From Candidatus Woesearchaeota archaeon (GTDB lineage: Archaea > Nanobdellota > Nanobdellia > Woesearchaeales > GW2011-AR9): a stretch of 64,000 nt of DNA. The notes below the pieces were generated by a model. That model was not told where the DNA came from. It was given only the letters and a program-made list of their open reading frames with translations, and ran no database searches. Below, piece by piece: positions 18,737-64,000 of this stretch (position 1 is its first letter; the number at the start of each line of letters is the position of its first letter). Location: contig JBAYIU010000001.1 in assembly GCA_041665465.1 (NCBI GenBank), positions 1,081,733 to 1,145,732 on the forward strand, in the 5' to 3' direction. The position numbers and the translations under genes were made by a program.

Positions 18737-20575
18737 ATGGGATTAGCTGATAGATTCATAGAAGCAAGAGAAGCTTTTGAACTGGCTTATGATAGAGTTG
18801 CTAATGACCATTCTCGCTCATTACTGGATCCTCTGGTTCTTCCAGAGGTAGAACAATACTTGCCTGTACTTGCCGAAGCGGTTCGTGAAGCAAGTCTTCT
18901 TTCTCCACTTGAGATAGGAGAACTCATTTTTCATCCTAAAAAGGCTCAACGAGGTATGGGTACTGCAGAATGTCTTCTATTTGATTATCAGCTTGCTGCT
19001 GAAGGGTTTGGTTTGGCCAATGTAGAAAGAACATTGGGAGAATTTGCAGAATTAAGTGACTTCATGAGTTTAGTTATTGCGAAATTATCTACTTCTCCTG
19101 ATCTTCCTGCTGTTGAGAGAATATCTCTTATTGGTGGTTCAAAAAGAATAAAGTTGGTTCAAGGGACATCTGAAGTCAAAGGTGACAGTGCTGCTCAGAC
19201 CTATCTTGCTCGGGAAAGAGAAGCTCACTGTTTAGTCTTTCAAGGAGATGCCCCTCAACAAGTTCACAATGAAGTTACTGATTTACTTCTAGCTAGATTT
19301 GGTCCTCATAGTCCTTACTTTAAGAAAACAGGTAGATACATCCGGCCATATCATGTTGATGCTAAATCTGGTTTGGCAACCATTGCTCAACTTGATTCTG
19401 TTCCTGAGGTTCATAATATTGGTAATTTATCTGTAGCCCCTGCCTACTTTAGGGTAGGGGGAATGTTTATTGATTATCAAGATCTAGATGTGGTGATTGG
19501 TGAGCTTAAATCCTTTGGGTATAGTGTTAGTCCAGGTAGTTCTAATTCCTCTCTTACTGATCGTTTATTATCCGCAGGAGTACCTGAACCATTGGTTGAA
19601 CCATTAATCCAAAGTGTTAATGCCCAGATCGATCGACTAGATCATATCGTTACGGATACTATGACTGGGATTATGGGTCATGGTTGCGTAGGAAGATACG
19701 TTTCTTCAGAAGGAACGTATTGGTTTAAGATAGATACTAATTATTCTGCAGCGTATAAGTCTTCTCAGATTCCTGCGTTAATTCATGCTCGAGCAGAAGC
19801 AGGTAGTGAATTAGCCCAAGCCCTAGCTAGAAGAATTCCTTGCACTTTATCTGGTCTTCCGATTCAAGTAGGAGATTATCATGTTACTTTTTCTCGAGAT
19901 GCGAACGAAATGATGGTTCAGCCAGATTTAGTAGAAAGATCTATCCTGTCTGTAGAATTAGGGAGAGGAATAGGTCCCGAGATGCTTCAAAGGATTTATA
20001 CTACTGCATTATATCATGAAGTTTCTACTGATCTTAGTAAGGATAATCCTGATCCTTTGTTAAGCTCGGAAATTTTCCCCACCAATTTAGATCGGGAACA
20101 ATTGATAGCTCGTTTTAATGGAAGATTTACAGATTTTTCTTCTTTATTCAACAGAACTATTGATGGGGGCTATGAAGAAGGACGTGCTAGGTTATTAGAA
20201 CATCAACTTTCTGGGTCAATTCAAGGTATCTATGACAACAAACCTGAGAACTATGTGGGGGCTTGTTGTGTTGATCTTGGAATATCCAAACAAGGGGACG
20301 AAGTAGATGATTTAGCTAGATTGATGTTAGGAAAGGAAGAATTTGTGAAAAATCCCATTCTCTTAAATAATTATGTTGGTGCTTATATCAGAATTCGTCA
20401 AGGAATTCAGAAGAAATATCGTGGAGAAGCAACGTATCATCCTAGTGAAGAATTGTCTGAATTAGTTAGTCTACAATTACAATATGGTACTTGGAGAATG
20501 ATGGGATGGAGTGTAGTAAGGGGAGATGAAGAAGGATTAACTAAATATTTGCGATGTGCTCAAGAGTTTGTCTGA
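18737..20575 (+). CDS. Large hypothetical protein (612 aa)
   Basis: Long ORF with consistent coding potential and elevated GC (about 42%). No motif recognised. Confidence 0.5.
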   Translation: MGLADRFIEAREAFELAYDRVANDHSRSLLDPLVLPEVEQYLPVLAEAVREASLLSPLEIGELIFHPKKAQRGMGTAECLLFDYQLAAEGFGLANVERTLGEFAELSDFMSLVIAKLSTSPDLPAVERISLIGGSKRIKLVQGTSEVKGDSAAQTYLAREREAHCLVFQGDAPQQVHNEVTDLLLARFGPHSPYFKKTGRYIRPYHVDAKSGLATIAQLDSVPEVHNIGNLSVAPAYFRVGGMFIDYQDLDVVIGELKSFGYSVSPGSSNSSLTDRLLSAGVPEPLVEPLIQSVNAQIDRLDHIVTDTMTGIMGHGCVGRYVSSEGTYWFKIDTNYSAAYKSSQIPALIHARAEAGSELAQALARRIPCTLSGLPIQVGDYHVTFSRDANEMMVQPDLVERSILSVELGRGIGPEMLQRIYTTALYHEVSTDLSKDNPDPLLSSEIFPTNLDREQLIARFNGRFTDFSSLFNRTIDGGYEEGRARLLEHQLSGSIQGIYDNKPENYVGACCVDLGISKQGDEVDDLARLMLGKEEFVKNPILLNNYVGAYIRIRQGIQKKYRGEATYHPSEELSELVSLQLQYGTWRMMGWSVVRGDEEGLTKYLRCAQEFV

Positions 20576-21489
20576 GAAAAGTTTATTGCAAATAATGGCA
20601 CAGTAGTAAGATAAATCGTTCGAGCTAACTCTCCACAATAATATAAAATTAGGTTTTCTTCCCCTTTTGATTTTTTAAGAAGAAGAAATATTTCCCCATA
20701 AAGGAGATGTTTATTATTGTCATTTACTTGTTCTATTATCTTAAGATCTTTCTTTGAAAAACCTTCATATAGTAGTTCAAAACTGGCTTTAATCTCGGTA
20801 AATAATTTCAAGGTGCTGTTAGAAAAAACTGGCTTATTCTTTCCTTGCATTACTTCGTAAAGATGCAATAAACTATGTTGTGTTAGCAACAATCGTGTGT
20901 ATAATTCCCAGTAGGAGTTTATTCTCTCTTCTACAAATCTTCTTTTGGAGATATTTCTATTGCAAAAGTTAGAGTAACGATCAACATTTTTACTATTTTG
21001 TATTAAATGAGACAAATGAGAAAAATCCTTGTTCTTAAAATCGTTTTCTAATTGCTCAAAAGAGTTCTTAATAATTAGAAAGATTCGGCGCAGAAGTACT
21101 TCTTGCTTCTCCTCACTTGGTTCAGTTACGTTTTCCAAGATTAAGTAATTGGGGCTTTCTTCCACAATTTCAAACCCTAACAATCTTGCTTCTACTGTGT
21201 TCTTAATCAAATTTTTCTGTTTAGGGATGTTAAAAAATACTTTTATTCGGTCAAAGCCAGTACGATAAAGGACATTCAGATTACTGCGAATAATCTGTTC
21301 ACTTTCAGTAGATATCTTTAGGACAGAACTCTTCTTCTCACCTTTTGATTCGGTGCTGATGATAACTTTATTTTCTATTTCTTCTATATCTACTTCTTTT
21401 CCTGCCTTCAATCCGTTGAGTTTGGTCCATTTAGCGGGAAGAGTTAAAGTTAAAGCGTTATCCCCCTGCTTGATCAGTTTTCTACGCAT
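20560..21489 (-). CDS. AbrB-N/PhoU-like regulator (paralog 2 of 4)
   Basis: MRRKLIKQGDNALTLTLPAKWTKLNGLKAGKEVDIE at the N-terminus. Aligns with the other three paralogs. Confidence 0.65.
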   Translation of the reverse strand: MRRKLIKQGDNALTLTLPAKWTKLNGLKAGKEVDIEEIENKVIISTESKGEKKSSVLKISTESEQIIRSNLNVLYRTGFDRIKVFFNIPKQKNLIKNTVEARLLGFEIVEESPNYLILENVTEPSEEKQEVLLRRIFLIIKNSFEQLENDFKNKDFSHLSHLIQNSKNVDRYSNFCNRNISKRRFVEERINSYWELYTRLLLTQHSLLHLYEVMQGKNKPVFSNSTLKLFTEIKASFELLYEGFSKKDLKIIEQVNDNNKHLLYGEIFLLLKKSKGEENLILYYCGELARTIYLTTVPLFAINFSQTNS

Positions 21490-27849: not shown

Positions 27850-28443
27850 ATGTCAATTAGAAAATATTTTGTGTCGATTGCCGCTGCGACGGTATTATTG
27901 GGGGGGTTAGCTTGCACTAAAATTGGATCTACTGCGGATACTTTGCTAGGGATGGCTTTGGATAATCCTAACTATCTTAGAATGGAACAGAGAGATACGG
28001 GAGTTGCTAACACTGCTTTCAAGGATAAAACTACCGGAAATTTAGTTTACACTTTGTTAAGAGATGGGTTTGAGGGAACAGTAACAGAATATTTTGATCT
28101 TAATCATAATGGGCAAGTTGATGGTGAAGATTATTTTGCTCGAGTTAAGGTACTTAGGGGCATAGATTGCGAAGGAAGTGATTCTGGTTGTCTAGACGAA
28201 GAATGTACTTTATGCTCTATGGTTGACTGTTTTACTCATTATCCTCAAACCGTCTCAACTAAGCCGCTTAAGGCTGTAACTACTGCTGCTGATCCTCTCA
28301 CTTTGTATCCTGCAAGCCAAGTTGACTTAATCTCTAGATATAAGGTTCAATCTCCTCGAGAAATTGCTCTGTGTGTGATTAATGGTGCAAGAGAATTAAA
28401 CCAAACTTATTCTGTAGTGGTTGATCCAAATCTTTTACCTTAG
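27850..28443 (+). CDS. Putative lipoprotein with an EF-hand-like Ca-binding loop
   Basis: Signal peptide with the lipobox LGGLAC. DLNHNGQVDGED matches the DxNxNGxxDxxE Ca-binding loop. Multiple Cys. Confidence 0.5.
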   Translation: MSIRKYFVSIAAATVLLGGLACTKIGSTADTLLGMALDNPNYLRMEQRDTGVANTAFKDKTTGNLVYTLLRDGFEGTVTEYFDLNHNGQVDGEDYFARVKVLRGIDCEGSDSGCLDEECTLCSMVDCFTHYPQTVSTKPLKAVTTAADPLTLYPASQVDLISRYKVQSPREIALCVINGARELNQTYSVVVDPNLLP

Positions 28444-28451
28444 GAGGAAAA

Positions 28452-29531
28452 ATGAAACGAATCACTTTAGCTAGTTTATTGTTGGGAGCTGCTCTTAGTT
28501 TGGGCGGATGTCATGAAGATACTCCGCAAGAGCAGATTGCAGATAAATTATCTCGTTCTCCAAAAAGTTTTCTGTGTGCGGTAGAGGATCACGTTAATTC
28601 TACTGCTCCTGCATTGTCCGTGGCTTCAGTATTGCAAACCGTTCCGGTGCTTAGTCCCGTAGTTAAGAATGATCTTCCCAAGACTATTCCTTTTACTGCT
28701 AATAGTGCTCCTAGAAAACATCGCGCTAACCAAGTTAATGGTAACATATTAACTGTTTACTTTACTACTGATCATTCTAGCTTTAACTCAAACGATACTG
28801 CTGATTTGGAAACCTATCTTCAAAGTTTACCTAATGGAACCCATTTGTTGGTAGAAGGTTATGCTGATCGAAGAGGTACTGATGAACATAACGCCTTGCT
28901 TAGTCAGCAAAGAGCTCAAGCTGTATCTGATTACGCTAAGAGATTTAATCCTACTTTGGAAACTGAACTTTATTCTTTTGGTGAGGGTCATCCGGCAGTG
29001 GAAGGTAAAGGGTTCAAGACTTATCAAGCTAATCGTCGAGTTAGAATTATCCCTCAAAAAAGTGAAGGAGTGATCACTACTGGACTAAGTACTTTAAAAC
29101 CATCTGATTATTATCTATTAGACCGAACCGGCTCAATGAAGGATATTCAATGGAATAGAGTTTCTAAGTGGAATGAAGTTCAATCTTATCAATTTCCAAA
29201 AGGGGCTAGTCTTTACACTTTTACTACTAATAATGTAACTAAAGGATGCACTGGTGAAGATTTAAATCAACTTACTCCTGATGGAGAGACTCCTTTGTTT
29301 GTGTCTTTATACTCTTTGTTAGATGAGATGAAAGAAGGTAGATCTGTAACTGTGCTAACTGATGGGATTAACAATGTAGGAGATGTTAGTGATAAGGACA
29401 TTATAGAAAGAGCTAGAGCAAAAAAGATTACTCTTTCCTTTCTAGCTCTAGTCCCTTGTGATAAGGACAGATTAACTTATCTGGCGAAAGAAACCGGCGG
29501 AGATACTTACTTGCCGATTGAGAAAGAATAA
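28452..29531 (+). CDS. Lipoprotein with an OmpA-like (peptidoglycan-associated) domain and a von Willebrand factor A domain
   Basis: Lipobox LSLGGC. VEGYADRRGTDEHNALLSQQRAQAV is the OmpA-C signature. YYLLDRTGSM (MIDAS DxSGS) and VLTDGINN mark a vWA domain. Confidence 0.65.
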   Translation: MKRITLASLLLGAALSLGGCHEDTPQEQIADKLSRSPKSFLCAVEDHVNSTAPALSVASVLQTVPVLSPVVKNDLPKTIPFTANSAPRKHRANQVNGNILTVYFTTDHSSFNSNDTADLETYLQSLPNGTHLLVEGYADRRGTDEHNALLSQQRAQAVSDYAKRFNPTLETELYSFGEGHPAVEGKGFKTYQANRRVRIIPQKSEGVITTGLSTLKPSDYYLLDRTGSMKDIQWNRVSKWNEVQSYQFPKGASLYTFTTNNVTKGCTGEDLNQLTPDGETPLFVSLYSLLDEMKEGRSVTVLTDGINNVGDVSDKDIIERARAKKITLSFLALVPCDKDRLTYLAKETGGDTYLPIEKE

Positions 29532-29544
29532 TGGAGAATGAAAA

Positions 29545-29925
29545 ATGATTGGATACATTAAACAAACTGTTTTGGCTTTAACGGCCTTTGGATTTATGAT
29601 TGGATCTGCTTATGCTGAGCAAAGAGATTTTTCTCCTCAGAAACAGTTAGCTAGAGTAGAAGCTCAGATTAAAACCGGAAAAGGAAACTTAGAAGAATTA
29701 AGAGAATTAAGATCTTATTTTAGAGATAGTGCTTCTTGTGATGCTCTGCAACAGAAATACTGGAAGAACTGTCAAGAACCAGAGCAGAGAGCTGCTTCTG
29801 AGAAACTTTGCGCTAGCTTAGATGCAGAAATTGATTCATTATGGGAATCTTGGTTAGAAACTCCTGATTTTAATCAACGATTAGATAATTATGGGTTTTG
29901 CGGACAGGATTATGTTGGTGACTAG
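29545..29925 (+). CDS. Secreted hypothetical protein
   Basis: N-terminal signal peptide, with a likely AYA-EQ cleavage site. 126 aa. Confidence 0.45.
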   Translation: MIGYIKQTVLALTAFGFMIGSAYAEQRDFSPQKQLARVEAQIKTGKGNLEELRELRSYFRDSASCDALQQKYWKNCQEPEQRAASEKLCASLDAEIDSLWESWLETPDFNQRLDNYGFCGQDYVGD

Positions 29926-29942
29926 TTTTTAAAAATTAAATC

Positions 29943-31376
29943 ATGACTATTAAAGAAAAGTTTGAAGCGATAAGGGATTATCGCAGCAGTAAAAAAGTCC
30001 AGATTGATCGTTTCTTAGATCCAGCTTTGTTTCTCACTTTTACTAATGCTGCTAGTTTGTATGGGTTAGATACGGCTTTAAACTGGGTGGCAGAACATTC
30101 AGATAAGCATGAAGGATTGGCTATGCTGGGAACTTATGCTGTTCTTGGTACAGGAATATATGAATTAAATAAGCATGTTCTTATCCCGGTAGCGAAGAGA
30201 ATAAAGCAATATCATGAGATCCGTGCTTTAAGAGGAAAAGATGCTACTGTTCTTAGCTTTGGTAAATCTGGAGCTTCACTAGCAGCATTAGCTACTTTGT
30301 ACGTTGTAGCTGGATTTAATCTTACCCTTAATGATTTCTACTGGGATGGAGATAGAGTAATTGATGCTTTTGCTCGTCATAAAAAAGCAGAACAAACCAT
30401 TGAAGAGGCTCAAGCTATTGATGTTACTCCTTTATCCTTAGAAGAAAGAGTTACTCTTGTGAATGAAACCAATATTTTAGAGAATAAAACATCTCTTGCT
30501 TCCTCTTCTGAGATTAAAGTAGAAAGTCCAACCGAGATTGGTAATTCTAACAAATATTCTACTAAAGGACGTTATTTAAGAACTCATCGCTGGGATAAAA
30601 TAAACCGAGCGGTAGAACAAAAATATGGGATTGAAGAAGGTCTTCTCTCCGGATTACAGATGAGAGAGAGTTATGGTAATCCGTTAGAACTTAATTCTGG
30701 AGATGATGGTGGAGCAGGATTGATGATGTTCCAACCCGGAACGGCCAAAGTATATGGTCTTAAAGTTTATGATGATGCTGGAGCTACGGGAAGAGATCGT
30801 AATCATGGAAGAAAACTTATCAAGTTAGTTAAAGATAATAATTATGATTATGAAGCTCTTGCTTCTATTGATGAAAGATTTGATGTACTTAAGAGTGCAG
30901 ATGCAGCAGGCAGATATCTTAGAGAGTTGTATGATAAATATGGTTCATGGGACAGCGCTTTATCTGCTTATAATCGAGGAACTCCGGCAACTAATCCTAA
31001 ATCTACTCGCCATGTTAAAACTACTCGAGAATATCAGCGATATTATCTTGAACATAATTCTGCAGGGGGAGAAAAGGTTGATGAAACCGTTTTGACTCGT
31101 CTTCGGCAAGATAGATTACCGGAATATCGATTCGTTAGAACAAATGAATTGGGACAAGCGGTTTATATGTACCGTGTTGAAGCTGGAGATAATGCCACAG
31201 TTATCGCTGAAACCTTTAATCGTTGGGATGGGAAACATGGAAGCAGATATCAAGACGTTGATTATACTCATATCGTTAATAGAGATAGAAAATATGTGGG
31301 ACACAGATTACATCCTGAGCAGTATGTTTACGTTTTAGCTGAACCTCTAGCTAAATCTAAACTTAAGAAGAAATAG
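29943..31376 (+). CDS. Membrane-anchored lytic transglycosylase (SLT domain) with a C-terminal LysM-like module
   Basis: Two N-terminal TM segments. QMRESYGNP...GGAGLMMFQPGTA...AYNRG is the SLT family signature with the catalytic Glu. The C-terminus YRVEAGDNATVIAETFN is LysM-like. Confidence 0.65.
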   Translation: MTIKEKFEAIRDYRSSKKVQIDRFLDPALFLTFTNAASLYGLDTALNWVAEHSDKHEGLAMLGTYAVLGTGIYELNKHVLIPVAKRIKQYHEIRALRGKDATVLSFGKSGASLAALATLYVVAGFNLTLNDFYWDGDRVIDAFARHKKAEQTIEEAQAIDVTPLSLEERVTLVNETNILENKTSLASSSEIKVESPTEIGNSNKYSTKGRYLRTHRWDKINRAVEQKYGIEEGLLSGLQMRESYGNPLELNSGDDGGAGLMMFQPGTAKVYGLKVYDDAGATGRDRNHGRKLIKLVKDNNYDYEALASIDERFDVLKSADAAGRYLRELYDKYGSWDSALSAYNRGTPATNPKSTRHVKTTREYQRYYLEHNSAGGEKVDETVLTRLRQDRLPEYRFVRTNELGQAVYMYRVEAGDNATVIAETFNRWDGKHGSRYQDVDYTHIVNRDRKYVGHRLHPEQYVYVLAEPLAKSKLKKK

Positions 31377-47531: not shown

Positions 47532-48164
47532 TTGACTTACTTTACTCTTATGAAACAAAAAACCCAGATCCTTTTCATTCGTGGCGGAATGACTTTTAAG
47601 AATAGGAAAGACTATTTACACTATCTAAAAAATCGAGATGTATCCATTGAAGGTAAAATTAGATGGCATGGTGAATACCTGAAAAGAAAGTTAGGTAAAC
47701 AGTTTCAGTTAATCAAGCCAAACATGCCTTTGGCAGAAAACGCTAAATACAATGAATGGAAAATCCACTTTGAACGTTATTTCCCTTATTTAAGAAATAA
47801 TCTTATCTTGGTGGGAGCATCTTTAGGAGGAATATTTCTAGCCAGATATTTGTCCGAGAACAAATTCCCTAAAAAAATACTGTCCTTATACTTAGTTGCT
47901 CCTCCTTTCGACAATACTTTCTCTGATGAAGATCTAGTTGGTGGATTTAAGCTTAAGTCTAACCTATCCTTAATCGAGAAGAATTGTAAAAATATTCGAT
48001 TATTATTTTCCCAAGACGATCCGGTAGTTCACATATCACATGCTAAGAAATATGCTAATAAATTAAGAACTGCTACGTTGATTATTTATCCCAGTAAAAA
48101 TGGGCATTTTAAGATTTCAGAATTCCCAGAACTTGTTAAGATGATCAAAGAAGATATTCGTTAA
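47532..48164 (+). CDS. Alpha/beta serine hydrolase (RBBP9/YdeN-like)
   Basis: Nucleophile elbow GASLGG (GxSxG). Size and layout match the small RBBP9/YdeN esterases. Confidence 0.55.
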   Translation: MTYFTLMKQKTQILFIRGGMTFKNRKDYLHYLKNRDVSIEGKIRWHGEYLKRKLGKQFQLIKPNMPLAENAKYNEWKIHFERYFPYLRNNLILVGASLGGIFLARYLSENKFPKKILSLYLVAPPFDNTFSDEDLVGGFKLKSNLSLIEKNCKNIRLLFSQDDPVVHISHAKKYANKLRTATLIIYPSKNGHFKISEFPELVKMIKEDIR

Positions 48165-52514: not shown

Positions 52515-53432
52515 ATGGAATTGCGTAGAAAAATCGTTAAGCATGGTCCTTCTTCTTTAACCGTATCTTTGCCCATGCACTGGGTTAAAAATAATAATCT
52601 TAAAAATGGGGATGAGGTTGAAGTATTAGAACGTCCGCGTGAATTGGTAATCTCTGGTGAAGGAAAGAGAGAGGCAAAAGAGATCACTATTACCTTGAGT
52701 AGTAAAAATCCCTTCGTTAAAAGATTATTTAACACTCCTTATCTCCATGGATATGATATAATCAATGTAAAGTTTGATTCTTATATTGTGATGGAAAAGA
52801 TATTACAATGTGTTAATGCTTGGAGAAGTTTTGAAGTGATTGAACAAAGAGAAAATTTTTGTAAATTAAAGAGCATTGCTGAAGCTAAACCTGAAGAGCT
52901 GGATGCTATGATTGTAAGAATGTTTAATATCTGCGATACGGTGTTAGAAGAATTATTATTATTTATTAAAAAAGATGATCTGGAAGCACTTAAAAGGATC
53001 TTGCTTTTGGATTCTACCATGACGGGAATAGATTTATTTTGTCGAAGAGTAATTAACACCGGAAAGGGAATTGAGATCGAGAAAGCTGGTAGTGTTTATT
53101 CTATCGTAAGAATCCTAGAGGAAATTTCCGACTTAGCTCGAGATATTGCTAATCGTTGTCCCAAGATTAGAATGATTCATAAGCAAGAATTTACTAAAAT
53201 TGTTGAACTATCAATGCAAAGTCTGGTTCTATTACGCAAGATTAGGTATAAGGGAGAAGTAGAATTGATGTATGAATATAAAGAACTAAAGAACCAACTT
53301 CGTGCTCGTTTTGATAAAGATCATAATTTTAATTCCGAAGAGATGTTTTTCTTTATGACTTTAAGACACCTAATCTATGAATTACATGATTTGTCTGGAG
53401 AAGTTTTATTATGGGTGAAATGGGGACAATAA
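52515..53432 (+). CDS. AbrB-N/PhoU-like regulator (paralog 4 of 4)
   Basis: MELRRKIVKHGPSSLTVSLPMHWVKNNNLKNGDEVEV at the N-terminus. Divergent from the kinase operon and upstream of the CYTH-like gene. Confidence 0.65.
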   Translation: MELRRKIVKHGPSSLTVSLPMHWVKNNNLKNGDEVEVLERPRELVISGEGKREAKEITITLSSKNPFVKRLFNTPYLHGYDIINVKFDSYIVMEKILQCVNAWRSFEVIEQRENFCKLKSIAEAKPEELDAMIVRMFNICDTVLEELLLFIKKDDLEALKRILLLDSTMTGIDLFCRRVINTGKGIEIEKAGSVYSIVRILEEISDLARDIANRCPKIRMIHKQEFTKIVELSMQSLVLLRKIRYKGEVELMYEYKELKNQLRARFDKDHNFNSEEMFFFMTLRHLIYELHDLSGEVLLWVKWGQ

Positions 53433-58795: not shown

Positions 58796-60394
58796 ATGGT
58801 TAAGAAACTAGAATTAGATCAAAGCAAATTGGCTAAATACCACGATTTGTGGTCGATGGGAGTTAATCCCTATCCTTACACTTTTCACCTTACGCACCAT
58901 GCTAAGGAAATAAACGAAAAGTTTGCCAAGTTGAATATTGGAGAACATGCTGAAGATAAGGTTTCTGTAGCCGGTAGGTTGATGTTACAGCGAGTGATGG
59001 GTAAAGCTAGTTTTGCTCATATTCAAGATCAAACCGGGAAATTGCAGTTATATCTTTCACAAGAGAATCTTGGTGAAGAGAATTATAAAACATTTACTAA
59101 GAAAATCGATGCTGGAGATATTATTGGGGTAGAAGGAACAGTATTCAAAACGAAAACAGGAGAAGTGACGATTGAAGTTAAACAATTACAACTTCTTTCT
59201 AAATCTTTACTTTCTATGCCTGAAAAGTTCCACGGTCTGAAAGATAAAGAATTAAGATACAGGCAAAGGTATGTTGACTTGTTCATGAATCCAGAGACGA
59301 GAGACGTATTTGTCAAAAGAAGTTTGATGTTAGAATCGATTAGACAATTTTTCAAGGAGAAAGCATTTATGGAAGTGGAAACCCCCGCTTTACAAGTTAT
59401 TTACGGTGGAGCTAATGCCCGACCATTTTTAACTCATATCAATGCTTGGAACATGAGAATGTTCTTGTCTATCTCTCCCGAACCTTATTTGAAAAGATTA
59501 CTTGTTGGAGGATTTGAACGGGTGTTTACTATCTGTAAGAATTTCCGTAACGAAGATGTGGACCATACTCATAATCCTGAGTTTACCATGTTGGAATGTT
59601 ATCAAGCGTATGTTGATTATAACACCATGATGGAATATATGGAACAGATCTATGAAAGAGCTGCTTTAGCTTTGAACGGTACGACTAAAGTAAAACATCT
59701 TTACAAAGGTGAAGAAGTAGTGATTGATTTCAAAGCACCTTGGGAACGCCTATCCATGTTAGATGCTTTAAAGAAATATGGTGGGATTGATGCTTATAAG
59801 TTAAGTAAGGAAGATGTTCTAGACTTGGTTTCTCAACATGGAATTGAGTTTGATGGAGATTTCACTTGGGGATTAGGAGTTCAATTACTGTTTGAAGAAT
59901 TAGCTGAAGAAAAATTAGTTCAACCAGTACATATTACCGATCATCCTAAAGAATCAACCCCTTTGTGTAAACCACATCGGCAAGATGCCCGGTTGATTGA
60001 ACGCTTTGAATCTTTCTGTATGGGAGCAGAATTATGTAACGCTTACTCTGAGTTAAACGATCCAGTTCTGCAACGTAAGTTGTTAGAAGATCAGGCAGCT
60101 CAACTTCGCGGCGGAAATGAAGAAGCTCATCCCATGGATGAAGATTTCGTTAACGCGATCGAGTATGGAATGGTACCTGCTGGTGGTTTAGGATTTGGAA
60201 TAGACAGAATGGCAATAATGCTAACTGGAGTAGAATCTATCCGAGATGTTATCTTCTTCCCTACTATGAAACCTCTTCCTGAAGAAGAAGTAAAGAAGGA
60301 AGGCCATAAGGAAGAGAGTAAGAAAGAAGAGAAGGATAATTCTGAACAGAAGCACGAACATAAGAAAGGTCATTCTGAAGTAGAGGAAGAATAA
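58796..60394 (+). CDS. lysS: Lysyl-tRNA synthetase, class II, with a K/E-rich C-terminal tail
   Basis: Class II motifs: FMNPETR..., a motif 2 region, and a motif 3 region GGLGFGIDRMAIMLTG. Tail KKEGHKEESKKEEKDNSEQKHEHKK. Confidence 0.9.
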   Translation: MVKKLELDQSKLAKYHDLWSMGVNPYPYTFHLTHHAKEINEKFAKLNIGEHAEDKVSVAGRLMLQRVMGKASFAHIQDQTGKLQLYLSQENLGEENYKTFTKKIDAGDIIGVEGTVFKTKTGEVTIEVKQLQLLSKSLLSMPEKFHGLKDKELRYRQRYVDLFMNPETRDVFVKRSLMLESIRQFFKEKAFMEVETPALQVIYGGANARPFLTHINAWNMRMFLSISPEPYLKRLLVGGFERVFTICKNFRNEDVDHTHNPEFTMLECYQAYVDYNTMMEYMEQIYERAALALNGTTKVKHLYKGEEVVIDFKAPWERLSMLDALKKYGGIDAYKLSKEDVLDLVSQHGIEFDGDFTWGLGVQLLFEELAEEKLVQPVHITDHPKESTPLCKPHRQDARLIERFESFCMGAELCNAYSELNDPVLQRKLLEDQAAQLRGGNEEAHPMDEDFVNAIEYGMVPAGGLGFGIDRMAIMLTGVESIRDVIFFPTMKPLPEEEVKKEGHKEESKKEEKDNSEQKHEHKKGHSEVEEE

Positions 60395-60461
60395 ACTTTC
60401 TTTTTTTGTTTATTCTCTCTACCATCAAAATTCTTTTAAACCCCCCTCTATCCTTATCTCT

Positions 60462-62234
60462 ATGGCTAAAATTCAAGTCTTATCTGAAGATTTAATTAAC
60501 AAGATCGCCGCTGGTGAAGTTATTGAAAGGCCTGCCAGCGTAGTTAAGGAGTTGTTAGAGAATTCTTTAGATGCCGGAGCGACTAAAGTCCAGATTGAAA
60601 TCAAGAATTATGGGCAGGATTTAATCAAAGTTACGGATAACGGAGAAGGGATGGATCAAGCCGATGCTCTTAACTCGGTGGTAAGGCATGCTACCAGCAA
60701 GATCAGAAACCAAGATGATCTGTTCTCTATCAACACCTTAGGATTTAGAGGAGAAGCCCTGGCTAGTATCGCTGCCGTGTCAAAATTAACTCTTTCTACT
60801 AAAACTGGAACTAATCTAGCTGGATTTAATATTGTACTTGAAGGAGGAATAATTAAGTATACCTCTGAGATTGGAATGGAAAAGGGAACCATTATTATGG
60901 TAGAAAATCTTTTCTTTAACACTCCCGCTAGAAAGAAGTTTCTTAAGACTGATGCAGTAGAATTAAGGCATATTGTTGAAGTAGTAATGCAGTATGCTTT
61001 AATCAATTCTAATGTTTCTTTTATATTAATTCATGAAGGAAGAGAGATATTACATTCTCCCAGCGTTTCTGGATGGAGAGATAATATCGCTTCTTTGTAC
61101 GGCTTTTCTTTAGCTAAAGAGTTGTTAGAGATAGAGAAAGAAGAGGTTGAATCCGGAGTCCATGTTAAGGGATTTGTATCTAAACCTTATGATGCGCGTA
61201 ATGATAAAACTCAGCAAGCTTTGTTTGTTAATGGAAGATGGATTCGTAACGAAGAATTGACTAAAACCATTTATGATGCTTATCACTCTTTATTATTTGT
61301 GGGTAAGCACCCTATCTTTATTATTAATATTCAGTTAGATCCAACTAAGATTGATGTGAATGTTCATCCCACTAAGTCTGATATTAAGATCGAACAGAAA
61401 ACAGAAGTTATGGAAACCTTGTTTAAAGCAGTACGCGAAGCGTTACAGCGTCATGATTTAATTCCAGTAATGGACTTTGGGTATGAACAGCAATTAGCGT
61501 TTGGCAAAACCCTGGTTAGAGAAGAACAGAAAGTTGCTGCCAAGTATGCGTTTGAACCTTCTGAGCAGATGGTGTTAAGTTTTCCTTCTGATGAATTAGT
61601 TCCGGGAGAAAGTTATTCTACTGCTTCCGATGTTACTAATGAAATTCCTGCTTCAGACAAACTGCCCCCGTTACGTTTACTGGGACAGATTCATAAAACT
61701 TTCTTTGTAGCAGAAACCCCTGGTGGAGTACTATTTATCGATCAACATGTGGTCCAAGAGAGAGTATTATATGAAAAGTTTATGGAGCAGTTCATGAATA
61801 AAAGGGTAGCAGTACAGAATTTATTACAACCGGAAATCTTAGAGTTAACTCCTACTCAGAACCTATTGTTGCAGGAGAATAAGGATCATCTACTTAGCTG
61901 GGGATTTGGATTAGAAGAGTTTGGGGATAATTCTTTTTTGTTACGTACTGTTCCTACTATTTTTGGCAGATTACAACCAAAAGAGATGTTGTTTGAGATT
62001 ATTCAGCAACTTTCTGAAGGGAAGTCAAGGCTGGAAGAAGTGCAAGAAGATATTATCACCAGAATGGCTTGTCGAGCTTCAGTAAAGGCTGGAGATACTT
62101 TGACTAATGGAGAGATGCAAATCTTATTAGGGGCGTTGAATCATACTGTTTTCCCTTACACTTGTCCTCATGGAAGGGCAGTGTTGATTAAGATGGATGT
62201 GGATGAATTAGAACGGAAGTTTCATCGTAAATGA
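60462..62234 (+). CDS. mutL: DNA mismatch repair protein MutL (with the C-terminal endonuclease motif)
   Basis: N-terminal GHKL ATPase (AAGEVIERPASVVKELLENSLDAGAT) and C-terminal DQHVVQERVLYE (DQHAxxERxxxE). Confidence 0.85.
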   Translation: MAKIQVLSEDLINKIAAGEVIERPASVVKELLENSLDAGATKVQIEIKNYGQDLIKVTDNGEGMDQADALNSVVRHATSKIRNQDDLFSINTLGFRGEALASIAAVSKLTLSTKTGTNLAGFNIVLEGGIIKYTSEIGMEKGTIIMVENLFFNTPARKKFLKTDAVELRHIVEVVMQYALINSNVSFILIHEGREILHSPSVSGWRDNIASLYGFSLAKELLEIEKEEVESGVHVKGFVSKPYDARNDKTQQALFVNGRWIRNEELTKTIYDAYHSLLFVGKHPIFIINIQLDPTKIDVNVHPTKSDIKIEQKTEVMETLFKAVREALQRHDLIPVMDFGYEQQLAFGKTLVREEQKVAAKYAFEPSEQMVLSFPSDELVPGESYSTASDVTNEIPASDKLPPLRLLGQIHKTFFVAETPGGVLFIDQHVVQERVLYEKFMEQFMNKRVAVQNLLQPEILELTPTQNLLLQENKDHLLSWGFGLEEFGDNSFLLRTVPTIFGRLQPKEMLFEIIQQLSEGKSRLEEVQEDIITRMACRASVKAGDTLTNGEMQILLGALNHTVFPYTCPHGRAVLIKMDVDELERKFHRK

Positions 62235-62735
62235 TTACTCTTTTTGATATTGAAATAAACTGATTAAAGTAATATTAGCAGAACAGATATATTGAGCTAA
62301 GCAAACCTCAATTCCCGGGAACCTTGGGTGTCTCTCGGAATTTTCTCTAACTATGGTATTCCCTATTTCGGGACCGTGTGCGTATCCTGGATAGATAAAA
62401 TGATACTTAAAGATTAAAGGTTTCATATCTCTTGGAGGAAAATAAGGGTATTTTACTGCATGTAATCCCCAATAACCTTTATCCTTATAATATGGCTTCA
62501 TAAAAGGACTTATCTCCAATACTTCTGAAGATAAACGATGATCTTCTGAAAGGATGTCATCTAAGTTCTTTACTATTTCTATAGTTGGGCATTTCCACGT
62601 AGAACATATCTCTAATCCCAAGGTGAAGAACTTCGTAAGTTTGCCATCTCTATTCCCTTTTGGAACTAATTCAATTTCGTCCTTTAAGTTTTGCATAAAT
62701 AGTCTTAACATCTCTTTTTTAGAAACAGAGACCAT
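62235..62735 (-). CDS. Hypothetical protein
   Basis: 166-aa ORF, convergent with mutL. Confidence 0.4.
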   Translation of the reverse strand: MVSVSKKEMLRLFMQNLKDEIELVPKGNRDGKLTKFFTLGLEICSTWKCPTIEIVKNLDDILSEDHRLSSEVLEISPFMKPYYKDKGYWGLHAVKYPYFPPRDMKPLIFKYHFIYPGYAHGPEIGNTIVRENSERHPRFPGIEVCLAQYICSANITLISLFQYQKE

Positions 62736-62806: not shown

Positions 62807-63520
62807 ATGGAACAAGATTTGATAAACTATGGTTTATCTGAAAAAGAAGCTAAACTATATCTGCTCTGTCTTAAAGCGGGAGAAACTACCGCTAATAGAC
62901 TGATTAAACTATCTGGGATGCCTCGCGGAACTACTTATGATATTTTGAATAAACTCAAAGAAATGGGATTAATTAGTTCAATTCTCAAAGACCATGGAGC
63001 AGTTTATCTAGCTAACGATCCAGAAATTTTGGTTAAAGAGTTAGATGAGAAGAAAGAAGATATTCAAAAGATAATCCCGGATTTAAGAAAAATAAGTAAA
63101 ACTCTTTCTCCCTCGCCGGAGATAGAAGTCTTTGGAGGTTTATCTGGAATTAAAAAGATCTTAGATGAGATACTGGAAAATTGCAAAGAAGTTATCATTA
63201 TGGGAAACGAGAAGTATGCTCGAGAAGTAATCAGACATCATCCAGAAAACTTTCGTATGAAGAGACTAGAAAGAAAGATTAGAATTAAAAACTTGCTGGA
63301 AGAATCAAAGATTTCCAGATTACTACAAGATGATGCTTACTCTCAAGTTAGACATCATCCTTCATTAAAGGAATCTAAAGAGGTATTAATCATTTATAAT
63401 GATAATACGGTTCATATTATCATGGAAGAACCAATAAAAATAATAAAGATCAATTCAAAGGAATATACTCGAACCCAAAAGATTTTGTTTGAGAGTCTTT
63501 GGGAAAGTGCGAAGAAATAA
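62807..63520 (+). CDS. TrmB-family transcriptional regulator
   Basis: YGLSEKEAKLYLLCLKAGETTANRLIKLSGMPRGTTYDILNKLKEMGLI is a TrmB N-terminal winged HTH. Confidence 0.65.
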   Translation: MEQDLINYGLSEKEAKLYLLCLKAGETTANRLIKLSGMPRGTTYDILNKLKEMGLISSILKDHGAVYLANDPEILVKELDEKKEDIQKIIPDLRKISKTLSPSPEIEVFGGLSGIKKILDEILENCKEVIIMGNEKYAREVIRHHPENFRMKRLERKIRIKNLLEESKISRLLQDDAYSQVRHHPSLKESKEVLIIYNDNTVHIIMEEPIKIIKINSKEYTRTQKILFESLWESAKK

Positions 63521-63545
63521 TATGGTCTTGTTGTACTATACCCCT

Positions 63546-64000
63546 TTAATCCTTAAACACTTTCTCAACTAATCTGAATCTTTTATTCTTACAATCTATC
63601 TCTGCTTTAATCCCCAGAGGTAAAATCCATTGGGGGTCAGTATGGCCAAAGTCCATATTCATAATTATCGGAAGAGAAGTGTTCTTTAATTCAACTTTAA
63701 CCACTTTCAACACTTTCTCTTCTAACTCCTTTCTCTCTTTAGCATTATATTTCATCGGCCTCCCAATAATCAAGGCAGATATTTTATCCAGGATTCCTTG
63801 CGTTCCGTAATTACGAATCATCCACTTAACTTGTTCTGGAGTAGGTTTATCATTTGATAGTTCTAAGAACAGAATTCTTCCTTGCCAGAAAGTTTCTTTG
63901 GGCCAGAATTTAGTTCCTTTCATGAATTCTAACACTTCAATACATCCCCCAAAAAGTTCTCCTTTAACTATGGATTTACCTTGCAGCCAGTTCCAACCAG
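63546..64000 (-). CDS. LD-carboxypeptidase (peptidase S66-like), C-terminal part; the gene continues beyond the window end
   Basis: DFGHTDPQWILPLGIKAEID matches the S66 C-terminal His region. The frame remains open upstream of the Met at 63935 (…GGCIEVLEFMKGTKFW…) through position 64000. Confidence 0.5.
   Translation of the reverse strand, partial: GWNWLQGKSIVKGELFGGCIEVLEFMKGTKFWPKETFWQGRILFLELSNDKPTPEQVKWMIRNYGTQGILDKISALIIGRPMKYNAKERKELEEKVLKVVKVELKNTSLPIIMNMDFGHTDPQWILPLGIKAEIDCKNKRFRLVEKVFKD

What the first reader, a model, noticed from the sequence alone, without database searches (positions are those of the whole stretch)
63546..64000. LD-carboxypeptidase (S66) fragment at the window edge: a second murein-directed enzyme in the same genome
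The reverse-strand ORF carries the S66 C-terminal motif (DFGHTDP...LPLG) and stays open through the window end, so the full gene lies outside. LD-carboxypeptidases trim murein tetrapeptides or process microcin-like peptides. Together with the SLT/OmpA cluster at 27.8-31.4 kb, it strengthens the idea that this archaeon handles bacterial peptidoglycan fragments.
Basis: partly seen in the sequence, partly recalled or inferred. Interest (0 to 1): 0.5.

Follow-up and report, generated by a model that had tools for sequence, protein, structure and literature searches.

The report
MccF-like S66 peptidase gene, archaeal
The window ends inside an ordinary, already-annotated gene for an S66-family serine peptidase of a Woesearchaeota archaeon; the full protein is intact, but it resembles the microcin-C-type (MccF/Ba3275) branch more than the true murein LD-carboxypeptidase LdcA, so its link to bacterial cell-wall scavenging is plausible but unproven.

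Summary
Window 63546-64000 (-) is the last 150 codons of an S66 peptidase gene (Pfam Peptidase_S66C, E 3.4e-30). I recovered the rest from a public contig that is identical to the window over 11,194 bases. The full protein has 344 aa and both S66 domains. It has the complete triad Ser112-Glu240-His313, no signal peptide, and host-like base composition. The host is an archaeon; NCBI names the identical protein [quoted passage not shown].

The "LD-carboxypeptidase" label is not established.
- The nearest solved proteins are B. anthracis Ba3275 (E 1e-81, TM 0.93-0.95, one entry with AMP bound) and MccF (TM 0.86-0.89). LdcA is far (TM 0.67-0.71).
- The protein scores 87.8 bits against a 378-bit cutoff on the NCBIfam LdcA equivalog.
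- It carries the Trp-bearing interdomain loop that LdcA lacks, but not MccF's basic Asp pocket.

Relatives 59-76% identical occur in both DPANN archaea and CPR bacteria. There is no conserved operon, and the SLT/OmpA cluster lies 32 kb away. A 2024 paper already reports such genes in the DPANN lineage Pacearchaeota and proposes peptidoglycan scavenging. Verdict: real, ordinary and already known, with substrate unresolved.

The parts
63546..64000 (-). 3' part (codons 195-344 plus stop) of the S66 peptidase gene. The full gene would occupy window-equivalent 63546-64580 (L001:10740-11774).
   Evidence: Open frame to the window end. Pfam Peptidase_S66C at E 3.4e-30. L001 is identical to the window and gives the full 344-aa ORF.
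63861..63863 (-). Codon GAA for the catalytic Glu240, in the local sequence F-L-E-L-S-N-D.
   Evidence: Aligns with Glu243 of Ba3275, which is mutated in PDB 5jyb (S116A/E243A/H313A), and with Glu243 of E. coli MccF. Invariant in 120 of 120 relatives.
63642..63644 (-). Codon CAT for the catalytic His313, in the motif DFGHTDPQ.
   Evidence: Aligns with His313 of Ba3275 and His311 of E. coli MccF. Invariant in 120 of 120 relatives.
63521..63545 (.). 25-bp spacer between the convergent stop codons of the TrmB-family regulator gene (62807-63520, +) and the S66 gene.
   Evidence: ORF list and sequence. TrmB Pfam hit at 1.4e-12. The tail-to-tail arrangement rules out a shared operon.

Best explanation
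This is the 3' end of a stand-alone gene for an intact, cytoplasmic S66-family serine hydrolase of a Woesearchaeota (DPANN) archaeon. The protein belongs to the Ba3275/MccF-like branch of S66. A Ser112-His313-Glu240 triad (shown by alignment) would attack the carbonyl of a terminal amide bond in a small imported molecule and release the group beyond it (inferred). The protein shares with MccF-type enzymes the interdomain loop carrying the Trp (W178) that stacks on adenine in MccF. Its closest solved relative was crystallised with AMP. I therefore think the most likely substrate class is an aminoacyl- or peptidyl-nucleotide or a similar small conjugate, which would mean detoxification or salvage (inferred). 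The specificity must differ from MccF, because MccF's Asn/Arg/Lys pocket for an acidic side chain is replaced here by Glu215/Asn243/Asp244. Trimming of scavenged murein stem peptides, the LdcA-type reaction, remains a serious alternative. The gene family moves between DPANN archaea and CPR bacteria.
For: Family and integrity:
- Both Pfam S66 domains are present.
- The full length aligns with Ba3275 at E 1.2e-81.
- The AF2 model has mean pLDDT 96.
- The triad is mapped by the Ba3275 S116A/E243A/H313A mutant and by E. coli MccF S118/E243/H311, and it is invariant in 120 relatives.

Branch placement:
- phmmer E-values are 1e-81 for Ba3275, 1e-37 for MccF, and 4e-10 to 1e-3 for the E. coli and P. 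aeruginosa LdcA structures.
- Foldseek TM-scores are 0.93-0.95 for Ba3275, 0.86-0.89 for MccF and 0.67-0.71 for LdcA.
- An NJ tree groups the protein with Ba3275 and next to MccF.
- The loop with W178, conserved in 118 of 120 relatives, is present in MccF and Ba3275 and gapped in LdcA and the short Clostridia/Bacteroidetes forms.
- PDB entry 5f5x is 'S116A Ba3275 with AMP bound'.
- The NCBIfam LdcA equivalog gives 87.8 bits against a cutoff of 378, lower than MccF itself at 117.9.

Location and expression:
- The N-terminus runs straight into the domain, so there is no signal peptide.
- A TATA-like TTATATA lies 22 nt upstream of the ATG.
- GC3 is 0.325, like host housekeeping genes.

Cross-domain spread:
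- Relatives 69-73% identical sit in archaeal contexts (L017 with L7Ae/S28e/L24e; L018 with RpoL) and in bacterial contexts (L019 with PBP1/S20p/pol III delta; L022 with YceG, 61% identical).
Against: - No activity is known for Ba3275 or for any member of this clade, so the substrate is inferred from relatives that are 29-42% identical.
- The MccF residues that read the Asp side chain (N220, R246, K247) are not conserved, so MccF-type specificity is excluded.
- An acidic pocket (clade consensus E215/E243/D244) could equally suit the amino group of Lys or meso-DAP at P1 of a murein tetrapeptide.
- There is no mcc-like cluster nearby.
- The same genome encodes a secreted SLT-domain protein.
- A published study reads these DPANN genes as murein tetrapeptide carboxypeptidases (PMC11537232).
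- Nudix linkage is weak: 8 of 85 loci.
Confidence: 0.45

Rival explanations
1. LdcA-type reading, the first reader's view and that of PMC11537232. The enzyme is a cytoplasmic LD-carboxypeptidase that removes the terminal D-Ala from murein tetrapeptides. These would be released from bacterial neighbours by the secreted SLT-domain protein and imported, giving the archaeon amino acids.
For: S66 is the LdcA family, and the triad and fold are shared. SLT (E 1e-14) and OmpA-like (E 8e-9) genes are on the same contig. Extracellular SLT proteins are a known Woesearchaeota/Pacearchaeota trait (PMC8204110, PMC9723730). Acidic residues next to the catalytic Glu could bind a Lys or DAP amino group (inference). 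CPR bacteria carrying the same clade do have peptidoglycan genes nearby: PBP1 in L019 and YceG in L022. There is a precedent for LdcA acquired by a wall-less host, in aphids (PMC2662799).
Against: The protein is far from every experimentally defined LdcA (E 4e-10 to 1e-3, TM about 0.7, 24% identity to E. coli LdcA). It reaches 87.8 of the 378 bits required by the LdcA equivalog model. It has the MccF-type loop that LdcA lacks. SLT products are anhydro-muropeptides, which also need an amidase and a transporter; none was seen in the roughly 74 kb examined. The gene is 32 kb from the SLT cluster, is monocistronic, and has no conserved murein-related neighbours in 85 loci. Relatives 47-48% identical occur in Methanomassiliicoccales, which to my knowledge have not been reported to feed on bacteria.
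Confidence: 0.35
2. General peptide-catabolism reading. The enzyme is a housekeeping carboxypeptidase or amidase for ordinary imported oligopeptides, or for some other small amide, with no specific tie to murein or to nucleotide antibiotics.
For: The gene stands alone among housekeeping genes and has host-like composition. It is very widespread, with at least 577 metagenomic relatives, and strongly conserved in genome-reduced symbionts that depend on scavenged amino acids. It has no conserved functional neighbours.
Against: Every characterised S66 enzyme acts on an unusual amide: an L,D peptide bond or an aminoacyl-nucleotide carboxamide (PMC8323819; established knowledge of LdcA and MccF). 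None is a general peptidase. The conserved Trp loop points to a specific ligand.
Confidence: 0.15
3. Artefact reading. The fragment is a pseudogene or a bacterial contaminant mis-assembled onto an archaeal contig.
For: S66 is mainly a bacterial family, and close relatives carry CPR bacterial labels.
Against: The ORF is intact over 344 codons with all catalytic residues. The identical protein and flanks are found in independent ENA, JGI, NCBI and Logan assemblies, including a 1.56-Mb contig. It is flanked on both sides by archaeal genes, and its GC and GC3 match the host.
Confidence: 0.02

Closest known systems
Ba3275 of Bacillus anthracis (PDB 5f1y, 5f5x, 5f9m, 5jyb; 'member of S66 family / MccF family', function unpublished as far as I could find)
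   Same: The two proteins are 42% identical over the full length, with E 1.2e-81 and TM 0.93-0.95 at rmsd 1.7 A. Length is the same (about 344 aa) and the triad matches (S116/E243/H313 against S112/E240/H313). They share the GGCIEVLEF motif, the ETSED-type motif after the catalytic Glu, and the Trp loop.
   Different: The host is an archaeon rather than a Firmicute. The window protein has E-L-S-N-D where Ba3275 and 114-117 of 120 relatives have E-T-S-E-D. Ba3275's substrate is itself unknown; only an AMP complex is on record.
MccF, the microcin C self-immunity serine carboxypeptidase (E. coli plasmid MccF; B. anthracis MccF)
   Same: S66 fold with TM 0.86-0.89, the Ser-His-Glu triad, about 340 aa, and the interdomain loop carrying the Trp that stacks on adenine (EcMccF W186, equivalent to W178 here). 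It is a stand-alone gene, as in B. anthracis (PMC8323819).
   Different: Only 29% identical. EcMccF N220/R246/K247 are E215/N243/D244 here, and there is a 2-residue insertion after the catalytic Glu. No mccABCDE genes lie nearby, unlike locus L020.
LdcA, the murein tetrapeptide LD-carboxypeptidase (E. coli b1192; P. aeruginosa PA5198)
   Same: Same Pfam domains and the same triad. Both are cytoplasmic.
   Different: 24% identical, TM 0.67-0.71, and E 4e-10 to 1e-3. LdcA is about 40 residues shorter and lacks the Trp loop. The window protein fails the NCBIfam equivalog cutoff (87.8 against 378 bits).
'Muramoyltetrapeptide carboxypeptidase' genes reported in Pacearchaeota genomes (ISME J 2024, PMC11537232)
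   Same: An S66/LdcA-annotated gene in DPANN archaea, interpreted as a way to obtain amino acids from bacterial peptidoglycan.
   Different: That report rests on annotation only. I did not check whether its genes fall in the same clade as this one.

Membership tests
Peptidase family S66 (Pfam PF02016 + PF17676) | Both the N-terminal and C-terminal S66 domains score above the Pfam gathering thresholds. | tested here: met
   PF02016 at 2.1e-32 (112.2 bits, cutoff 25) and PF17676 at 2.4e-29 (102.8 bits, cutoff 23.7) on the full protein. The window fragment alone gives PF17676 at 3.4e-30.
Peptidase family S66 | Ser-His-Glu catalytic triad at the family positions. | tested here: met
   S112 (GYSD), E240 and H313 (FGHTDP) align with Ba3275 S116/E243/H313, EcMccF S118/E243/H311 and the E. 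coli LdcA GHSD...E...GH motifs. All three are invariant in 120 of 120 relatives.
Peptidase family S66 | Two-domain S66 fold. | tested here: met
   The AF2 model has pLDDT 96.1 and pTM 0.93. The top 47 Foldseek PDB hits are all S66 proteins.
LdcA (murein tetrapeptide LD-carboxypeptidase, NCBIfam NF008424 equivalog) | Score above the curated equivalog cutoff. | tested here: not met
   87.8 bits against a cutoff of 378. E. coli LdcA scores 555.6 and E. coli MccF 117.9.
LdcA | Compact architecture of about 305 aa without the MccF-type interdomain loop. | tested here: not met
   The protein has 344 aa. Residues about 170-185, including W178, align to gaps in E. coli LdcA.
LdcA | Release of D-Ala from L-Ala-D-Glu-mDAP-D-Ala. 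| not testable with these tools
   This needs an enzyme assay.
LdcA | Embedded in a murein-recycling gene set (muropeptide or peptide permease, AmpD-type amidase, Mpl). | tested here: inconclusive
   None of these appears in the precomputed Pfam tables covering most of the window plus 9.5 kb beyond it.
MccF clade (microcin C-type S66 carboxypeptidases) | Interdomain 'catalytic' loop with the conserved Trp that stacks on the nucleobase (EcMccF W186, BaMccF W180). | tested here: met
   W178 aligns with EcMccF W186 and with the Ba3275 Trp, and is conserved in 118 of 120 relatives. The role of this Trp is taken from PMC8323819 and from PDB entry titles.
MccF clade | Pocket for the acidic aminoacyl side chain (EcMccF N220, R246, K247). 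| tested here: not met
   The equivalent residues are E215, N243 and D244 (clade consensus E, E, D). That these residues are important is inferred from PDB 3tly (the S118A/N220A/K247A mutant) and from my own recollection of Agarwal et al. 2012, which is not held in the library.
MccF clade | Hydrolysis of processed microcin C or aminoacyl-sulfamoyl-adenosines, conferring resistance. | not testable with these tools
   This needs an enzyme or resistance assay.
MccF clade | Linkage to an mcc-type biosynthetic cluster (true for some members only). | tested here: not met
   No MccB/ThiF, MccC/MFS or MccE/GNAT genes lie near the gene in L001 or in 85 related loci. Compare L020. Stand-alone MccF homologues are known (PMC8323819).

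The most novel reading that the evidence does not exclude
The Ba3275-like clade forms a distinct S66 subfamily. It shows 59-76% identity across Woesearchaeota and CPR bacteria, carries the signature GGCIEVLEF ... ETSEDKP ... DFGHTDPQ, and has an acidic rather than basic pocket. Its substrate would be new: neither murein tetrapeptide nor aspartyl-adenylate, but for example a basic aminoacyl- or peptidyl-nucleotide. It would have been exchanged between ultra-small archaeal and bacterial symbionts as a shared tool for salvage or antibiotic immunity.
Probability: 0.25. Interest if true: 0.5.

Novelty: already known. Interest (0 to 1): 0.2.

Why it matters
On its own this matters little. The gene is an annotated member of a well-known peptidase family, and the idea that DPANN archaea carry LdcA-like genes to exploit bacterial peptidoglycan is already published.

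The useful point is a caution about annotation. These DPANN/CPR genes are routinely labelled "muramoyltetrapeptide carboxypeptidase LdcA" and used to argue for peptidoglycan feeding. Yet they sit in the uncharacterised Ba3275/MccF-like branch and fail the LdcA equivalog test. A single enzyme assay on this clade would either give that ecological argument a biochemical basis or remove it. It would also assign a function to the orphan Ba3275 structures.

Tried and rejected
- Conserved gene neighbourhood as a functional clue. I called ORFs in 85 related loci and clustered the three neighbours on each side. No family recurred in more than 6 loci.
- Nudix linkage. A Nudix-box scan found a Nudix gene within 3 genes in only 8 of 85 loci, and none in the window locus. 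I rejected it as evidence and kept it as a passing note.
- Taxon names for close relatives from cluster look-up. Almost none carried names, so I used gene context instead. L023 could not be assigned to a domain.
- Genome-contig scan. It returned only 14 loci, and the window's own genome was not among them.
- Literature on Ba3275. I found nothing relevant. Nocek 2012, Agarwal 2012 and Tikhonov 2010 are not held, so the roles of the MccF residues rest on a review (PMC8323819), PDB titles and my own recollection.
- tRNA and Rfam scans of the window found nothing.
- Whether the two MazE/PhoU-like genes (20560-21489 and 52515-53432) are repeats. They are only 29% identical, so they are not.
- The sigma-70 promoter and terminator scan around the gene was no better than shuffled sequence and is not appropriate for an archaeon.
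- Recent-transfer signal. The S66 gene's GC and GC3 match host genes, so I rejected the idea of a recent import into this genome.

Full report
**1. Observation**

The reverse strand of window 63546-63998 translates without a stop into 150 residues ending in ...NMDFGHTDPQWILPLGIKAEIDCKNKRFRLVEKVFKD*. The stop codon is at 63548-63546, and the frame is still open at the window edge. The fragment covers the entire Pfam Peptidase_S66C model at E 3.4e-30. It aligns to the C-terminal halves of solved S66 proteins, best to B. anthracis Ba3275 at E 4e-40.

**2. Recovering the whole gene**

I looked up the neighbouring TrmB-family protein (62807-63520, +) by exact sequence. This returned ENA contig k141_591866 (locus L001) and a JGI contig (L002). 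L001 is identical to the window over all 11,194 overlapping bases.

The complete gene is L001:10740-11774(-), equivalent to window coordinates 63546-64580, and encodes 344 aa. The identical protein is recorded from NCBI, JGI, ENA and Logan. It includes NCBI accession MFA6461916.1, [quoted passage not shown], on a contig of 1.56 Mb.

**3. Host**

The window and its extension carry archaeal information-processing genes:
- EF-1alpha, S10, a proteasome subunit and an aCPSF1-type beta-CASP nuclease;
- an archaeal-type CCA-adding enzyme;
- aIF2-gamma and ribosomal protein S17e.

"This archaeon" is correct.

**4. Anatomy of the protein**

- Both S66 domains are present: PF02016 at 2.1e-32 and PF17676 at 2.4e-29.
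- The Ba3275 structures include the mutant S116A/E243A/H313A (PDB 5jyb), whose changed residues are visible in the alignment. Together with E. coli MccF S118/E243/H311, these define the triad here as Ser112 (GYSD), Glu240 and His313. All three are invariant in the 120 best relatives.
- The N-terminus (MIKPKKLHKGDTVAIVSPSWGG) runs straight into the first beta-strand of the domain. There is no signal peptide, so I infer a cytoplasmic enzyme.
- An AlphaFold2 model built on 62 relatives is confident, with pLDDT 96.1.
- The gene converges on the TrmB-family gene with a 25-bp spacer and diverges from a 223-aa gene of unknown function, so it is monocistronic.
- A TTATATA lies 22 nt upstream of the ATG. 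This fits an archaeal TATA box with a very short leader, which is inference only.
- GC (0.353) and GC3 (0.325) match host housekeeping genes.

**5. Which kind of S66 enzyme**

Sequence searches against solved structures rank the relatives as follows:
- Ba3275, 1.2e-81;
- S. pneumoniae MccF-like protein, 8e-42;
- E. coli MccF, 1e-37, and B. anthracis MccF, 2e-37;
- BA_5613, 6e-30;
- a deposited "muramoyltetrapeptide carboxypeptidase" structure (6uuk), 3e-20;
- E. coli LdcA (5z01), 4e-10, and P. aeruginosa LdcA, 1e-3.

Foldseek gives the same order: TM 0.93-0.95 for Ba3275, 0.86-0.89 for MccF and 0.67-0.71 for LdcA. An NJ tree places the protein with Ba3275, next to MccF, and away from LdcA and the short Clostridia/Bacteroidetes forms.

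The NCBIfam LdcA equivalog model gives 87.8 bits against a cutoff of 378. That is less than E. coli MccF itself (117.9), and E. coli LdcA scores 555.6.

In the multiple alignment, residues about 170-185 form an interdomain insertion that is present in MccF and Ba3275 and absent (gapped) in LdcA. This insertion includes W178, which is conserved in 118 of 120 relatives. W178 aligns with EcMccF W186, the residue that stacks on the adenine of processed microcin C (PMC8323819). One Ba3275 entry is an AMP complex (5f5x).

Against a true MccF function, EcMccF N220/R246/K247 correspond here to E215/N243/D244 (clade consensus E/E/D). There is also a two-residue insertion after the catalytic Glu. Two of the three, N220 and K247, are the residues mutated together with S118 in PDB entry 3tly. 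That all three form the pocket reading the acidic aminoacyl side chain rests on my recollection of Agarwal et al. 2012, which the library does not hold. The pocket is acidic or neutral rather than basic, so aspartyl-adenylate specificity is unlikely.

The family assignment (S66) is therefore secure. The activity "LD-carboxypeptidase" is not established, and the substrate is unknown.

**6. Distribution**

The protein database holds thousands of relatives, and the best 120 are 59-76% identical. Gene context shows both domains of life:
- Archaeal: L017 (L7Ae, S28e, L24e; 73% identical) and L018 (RpoL; 71%).
- Bacterial: L019 (PBP1, S20p, pol III delta, UvrB, RuvC; 69%) and L022 (YceG and other bacterial genes; 61%).

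NCBI labels among the hits are Woesearchaeota and several CPR/Patescibacteria groups. These labels are intermixed in the NJ tree.

More distant members (47-48% identical) occur in Methanomassiliicoccales and in another Woesearchaeota genome. A metagenome scan found at least 577 relatives.

Identity this high across domains implies horizontal exchange between DPANN archaea and CPR bacteria. The direction is unresolved. The host-like composition argues against a very recent import into this particular genome.

**7. Link to the SLT/OmpA cluster**

The cluster itself is real. ORF 29943-31376 has an SLT domain (E 1e-14). ORF 28452-29531 has an OmpA-like domain (E 8e-9) and a lipoprotein-like N-terminus. 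Extracellular SLT-domain proteins are a published trait of Woesearchaeota and Pacearchaeota (PMC8204110, PMC9723730).

Nothing ties the cluster to the S66 gene, however:
- The two lie 32 kb apart in separate transcription units.
- The S66 protein is intracellular.
- No muropeptide or peptide permease, amidase or other recycling gene appears in the Pfam tables covering most of the window and 9.5 kb beyond it.
- In 85 related loci no neighbouring family recurs in more than 6 loci.

The idea remains plausible: acidic pocket residues could accept a Lys or DAP amino group. It has already been proposed for Pacearchaeota on annotation grounds (PMC11537232). There is also a precedent for LdcA acquired by a wall-less host, in aphids (PMC2662799).

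**8. Mechanism and weights**

Shown: an intact S66 hydrolase with a Ser112-His313-Glu240 triad, of the MccF/Ba3275 architecture, with no signal peptide (hence inferred to be cytoplasmic).

Inferred: it cleaves a terminal amide in a small imported molecule. My weights are:
- about 0.45 for an aminoacyl- or peptidyl-nucleotide-type or similar conjugate, meaning MccF-like chemistry with a different specificity;
- about 0.35 for murein stem-peptide trimming;
- about 0.15 for other peptide catabolism;
- about 0.02 for an artefact.

**9. Novelty**

The exact protein is already in NCBI with the S66 name. LdcA-annotated genes in DPANN archaea, and the peptidoglycan-scavenging idea, are in print (PMC11537232). 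The finding is correct but ordinary.

What this analysis adds is a caution: the DPANN/CPR clade is not an LdcA equivalog, and its substrate needs an assay.

Noticed in passing
window 27850-31376 (+): A cluster of four co-directional ORFs. It includes an OmpA-like protein (28452-29531, PF00691 at 8e-9) with a lipoprotein-like N-terminus and a 477-aa SLT-domain protein (29943-31376, PF01464 at 1e-14). It is flanked by archaeal genes (an AsnC regulator and the CCA-adding enzyme). Its GC3 is 0.22-0.24, against about 0.31 for housekeeping genes. This may reflect a different origin or age.
   Followed up: partly
window 63852-63863 (-), residues 240-243 of the S66 protein: Directly after the catalytic Glu the window protein reads E-L-S-N-D. 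In contrast, 114 of 120 relatives have Thr at position 241, 117 of 120 have Glu at 243, and Ba3275 has E-T-S-E-D. This is the only sequence of the 120 carrying either change. Residue 243 corresponds to EcMccF R246, so specificity may have shifted in this lineage.
   Followed up: partly
L017:11061-11492, L022:9052-9588, L025:1539-2012, L045, L092, L019:8926-9363: A Nudix hydrolase gene lies within three genes of the S66 gene in 8 of 85 related loci. It sits directly downstream on the same strand in an archaeal locus (L017) and a CPR bacterial locus (L022). The window locus has none. The association is weak, though it might hint at a nucleotide-linked substrate.
   Followed up: partly
window 58796-62234 (+): A class II lysyl-tRNA synthetase (532 aa) and a MutL homologue (590 aa; HATPase_c_3, DNA_mis_repair and MutL_C domains) lie side by side in this archaeal genome. 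To my knowledge, most archaea use class I LysRS and lack MutL, so these look like further bacterial-type acquisitions. No MutS was seen nearby.
   Followed up: no
window 47532-48164 (+); L019:9368-9988, L042, L079: A PF06821 'Ser_hydrolase' gene lies in the window about 15 kb from the S66 gene. In three related loci a BLAST-clustered neighbour family sits immediately next to the S66 gene; the L019 member carries a weak PF06821 hit.
   Followed up: no
L001:11775-11830 (-), about 230-285 nt beyond the window end: TTATATA lies 22 nt upstream of the S66 start codon. This is consistent with an archaeal TATA box and a near-leaderless mRNA.
   Followed up: no
window 62235-62735 (-) and L001:11915-12586 (+): Two ORFs flanking the TrmB/S66 pair, of 166 aa and 223 aa, have no Pfam match.
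   Followed up: no
L021 (E. coli K-12, 1242166-1243791): In E. coli the true ldcA gene lies directly beside emtA, which encodes lytic murein transglycosylase E. That is a tight LdcA-SLT pairing of the kind that is absent in this window.
   Followed up: no
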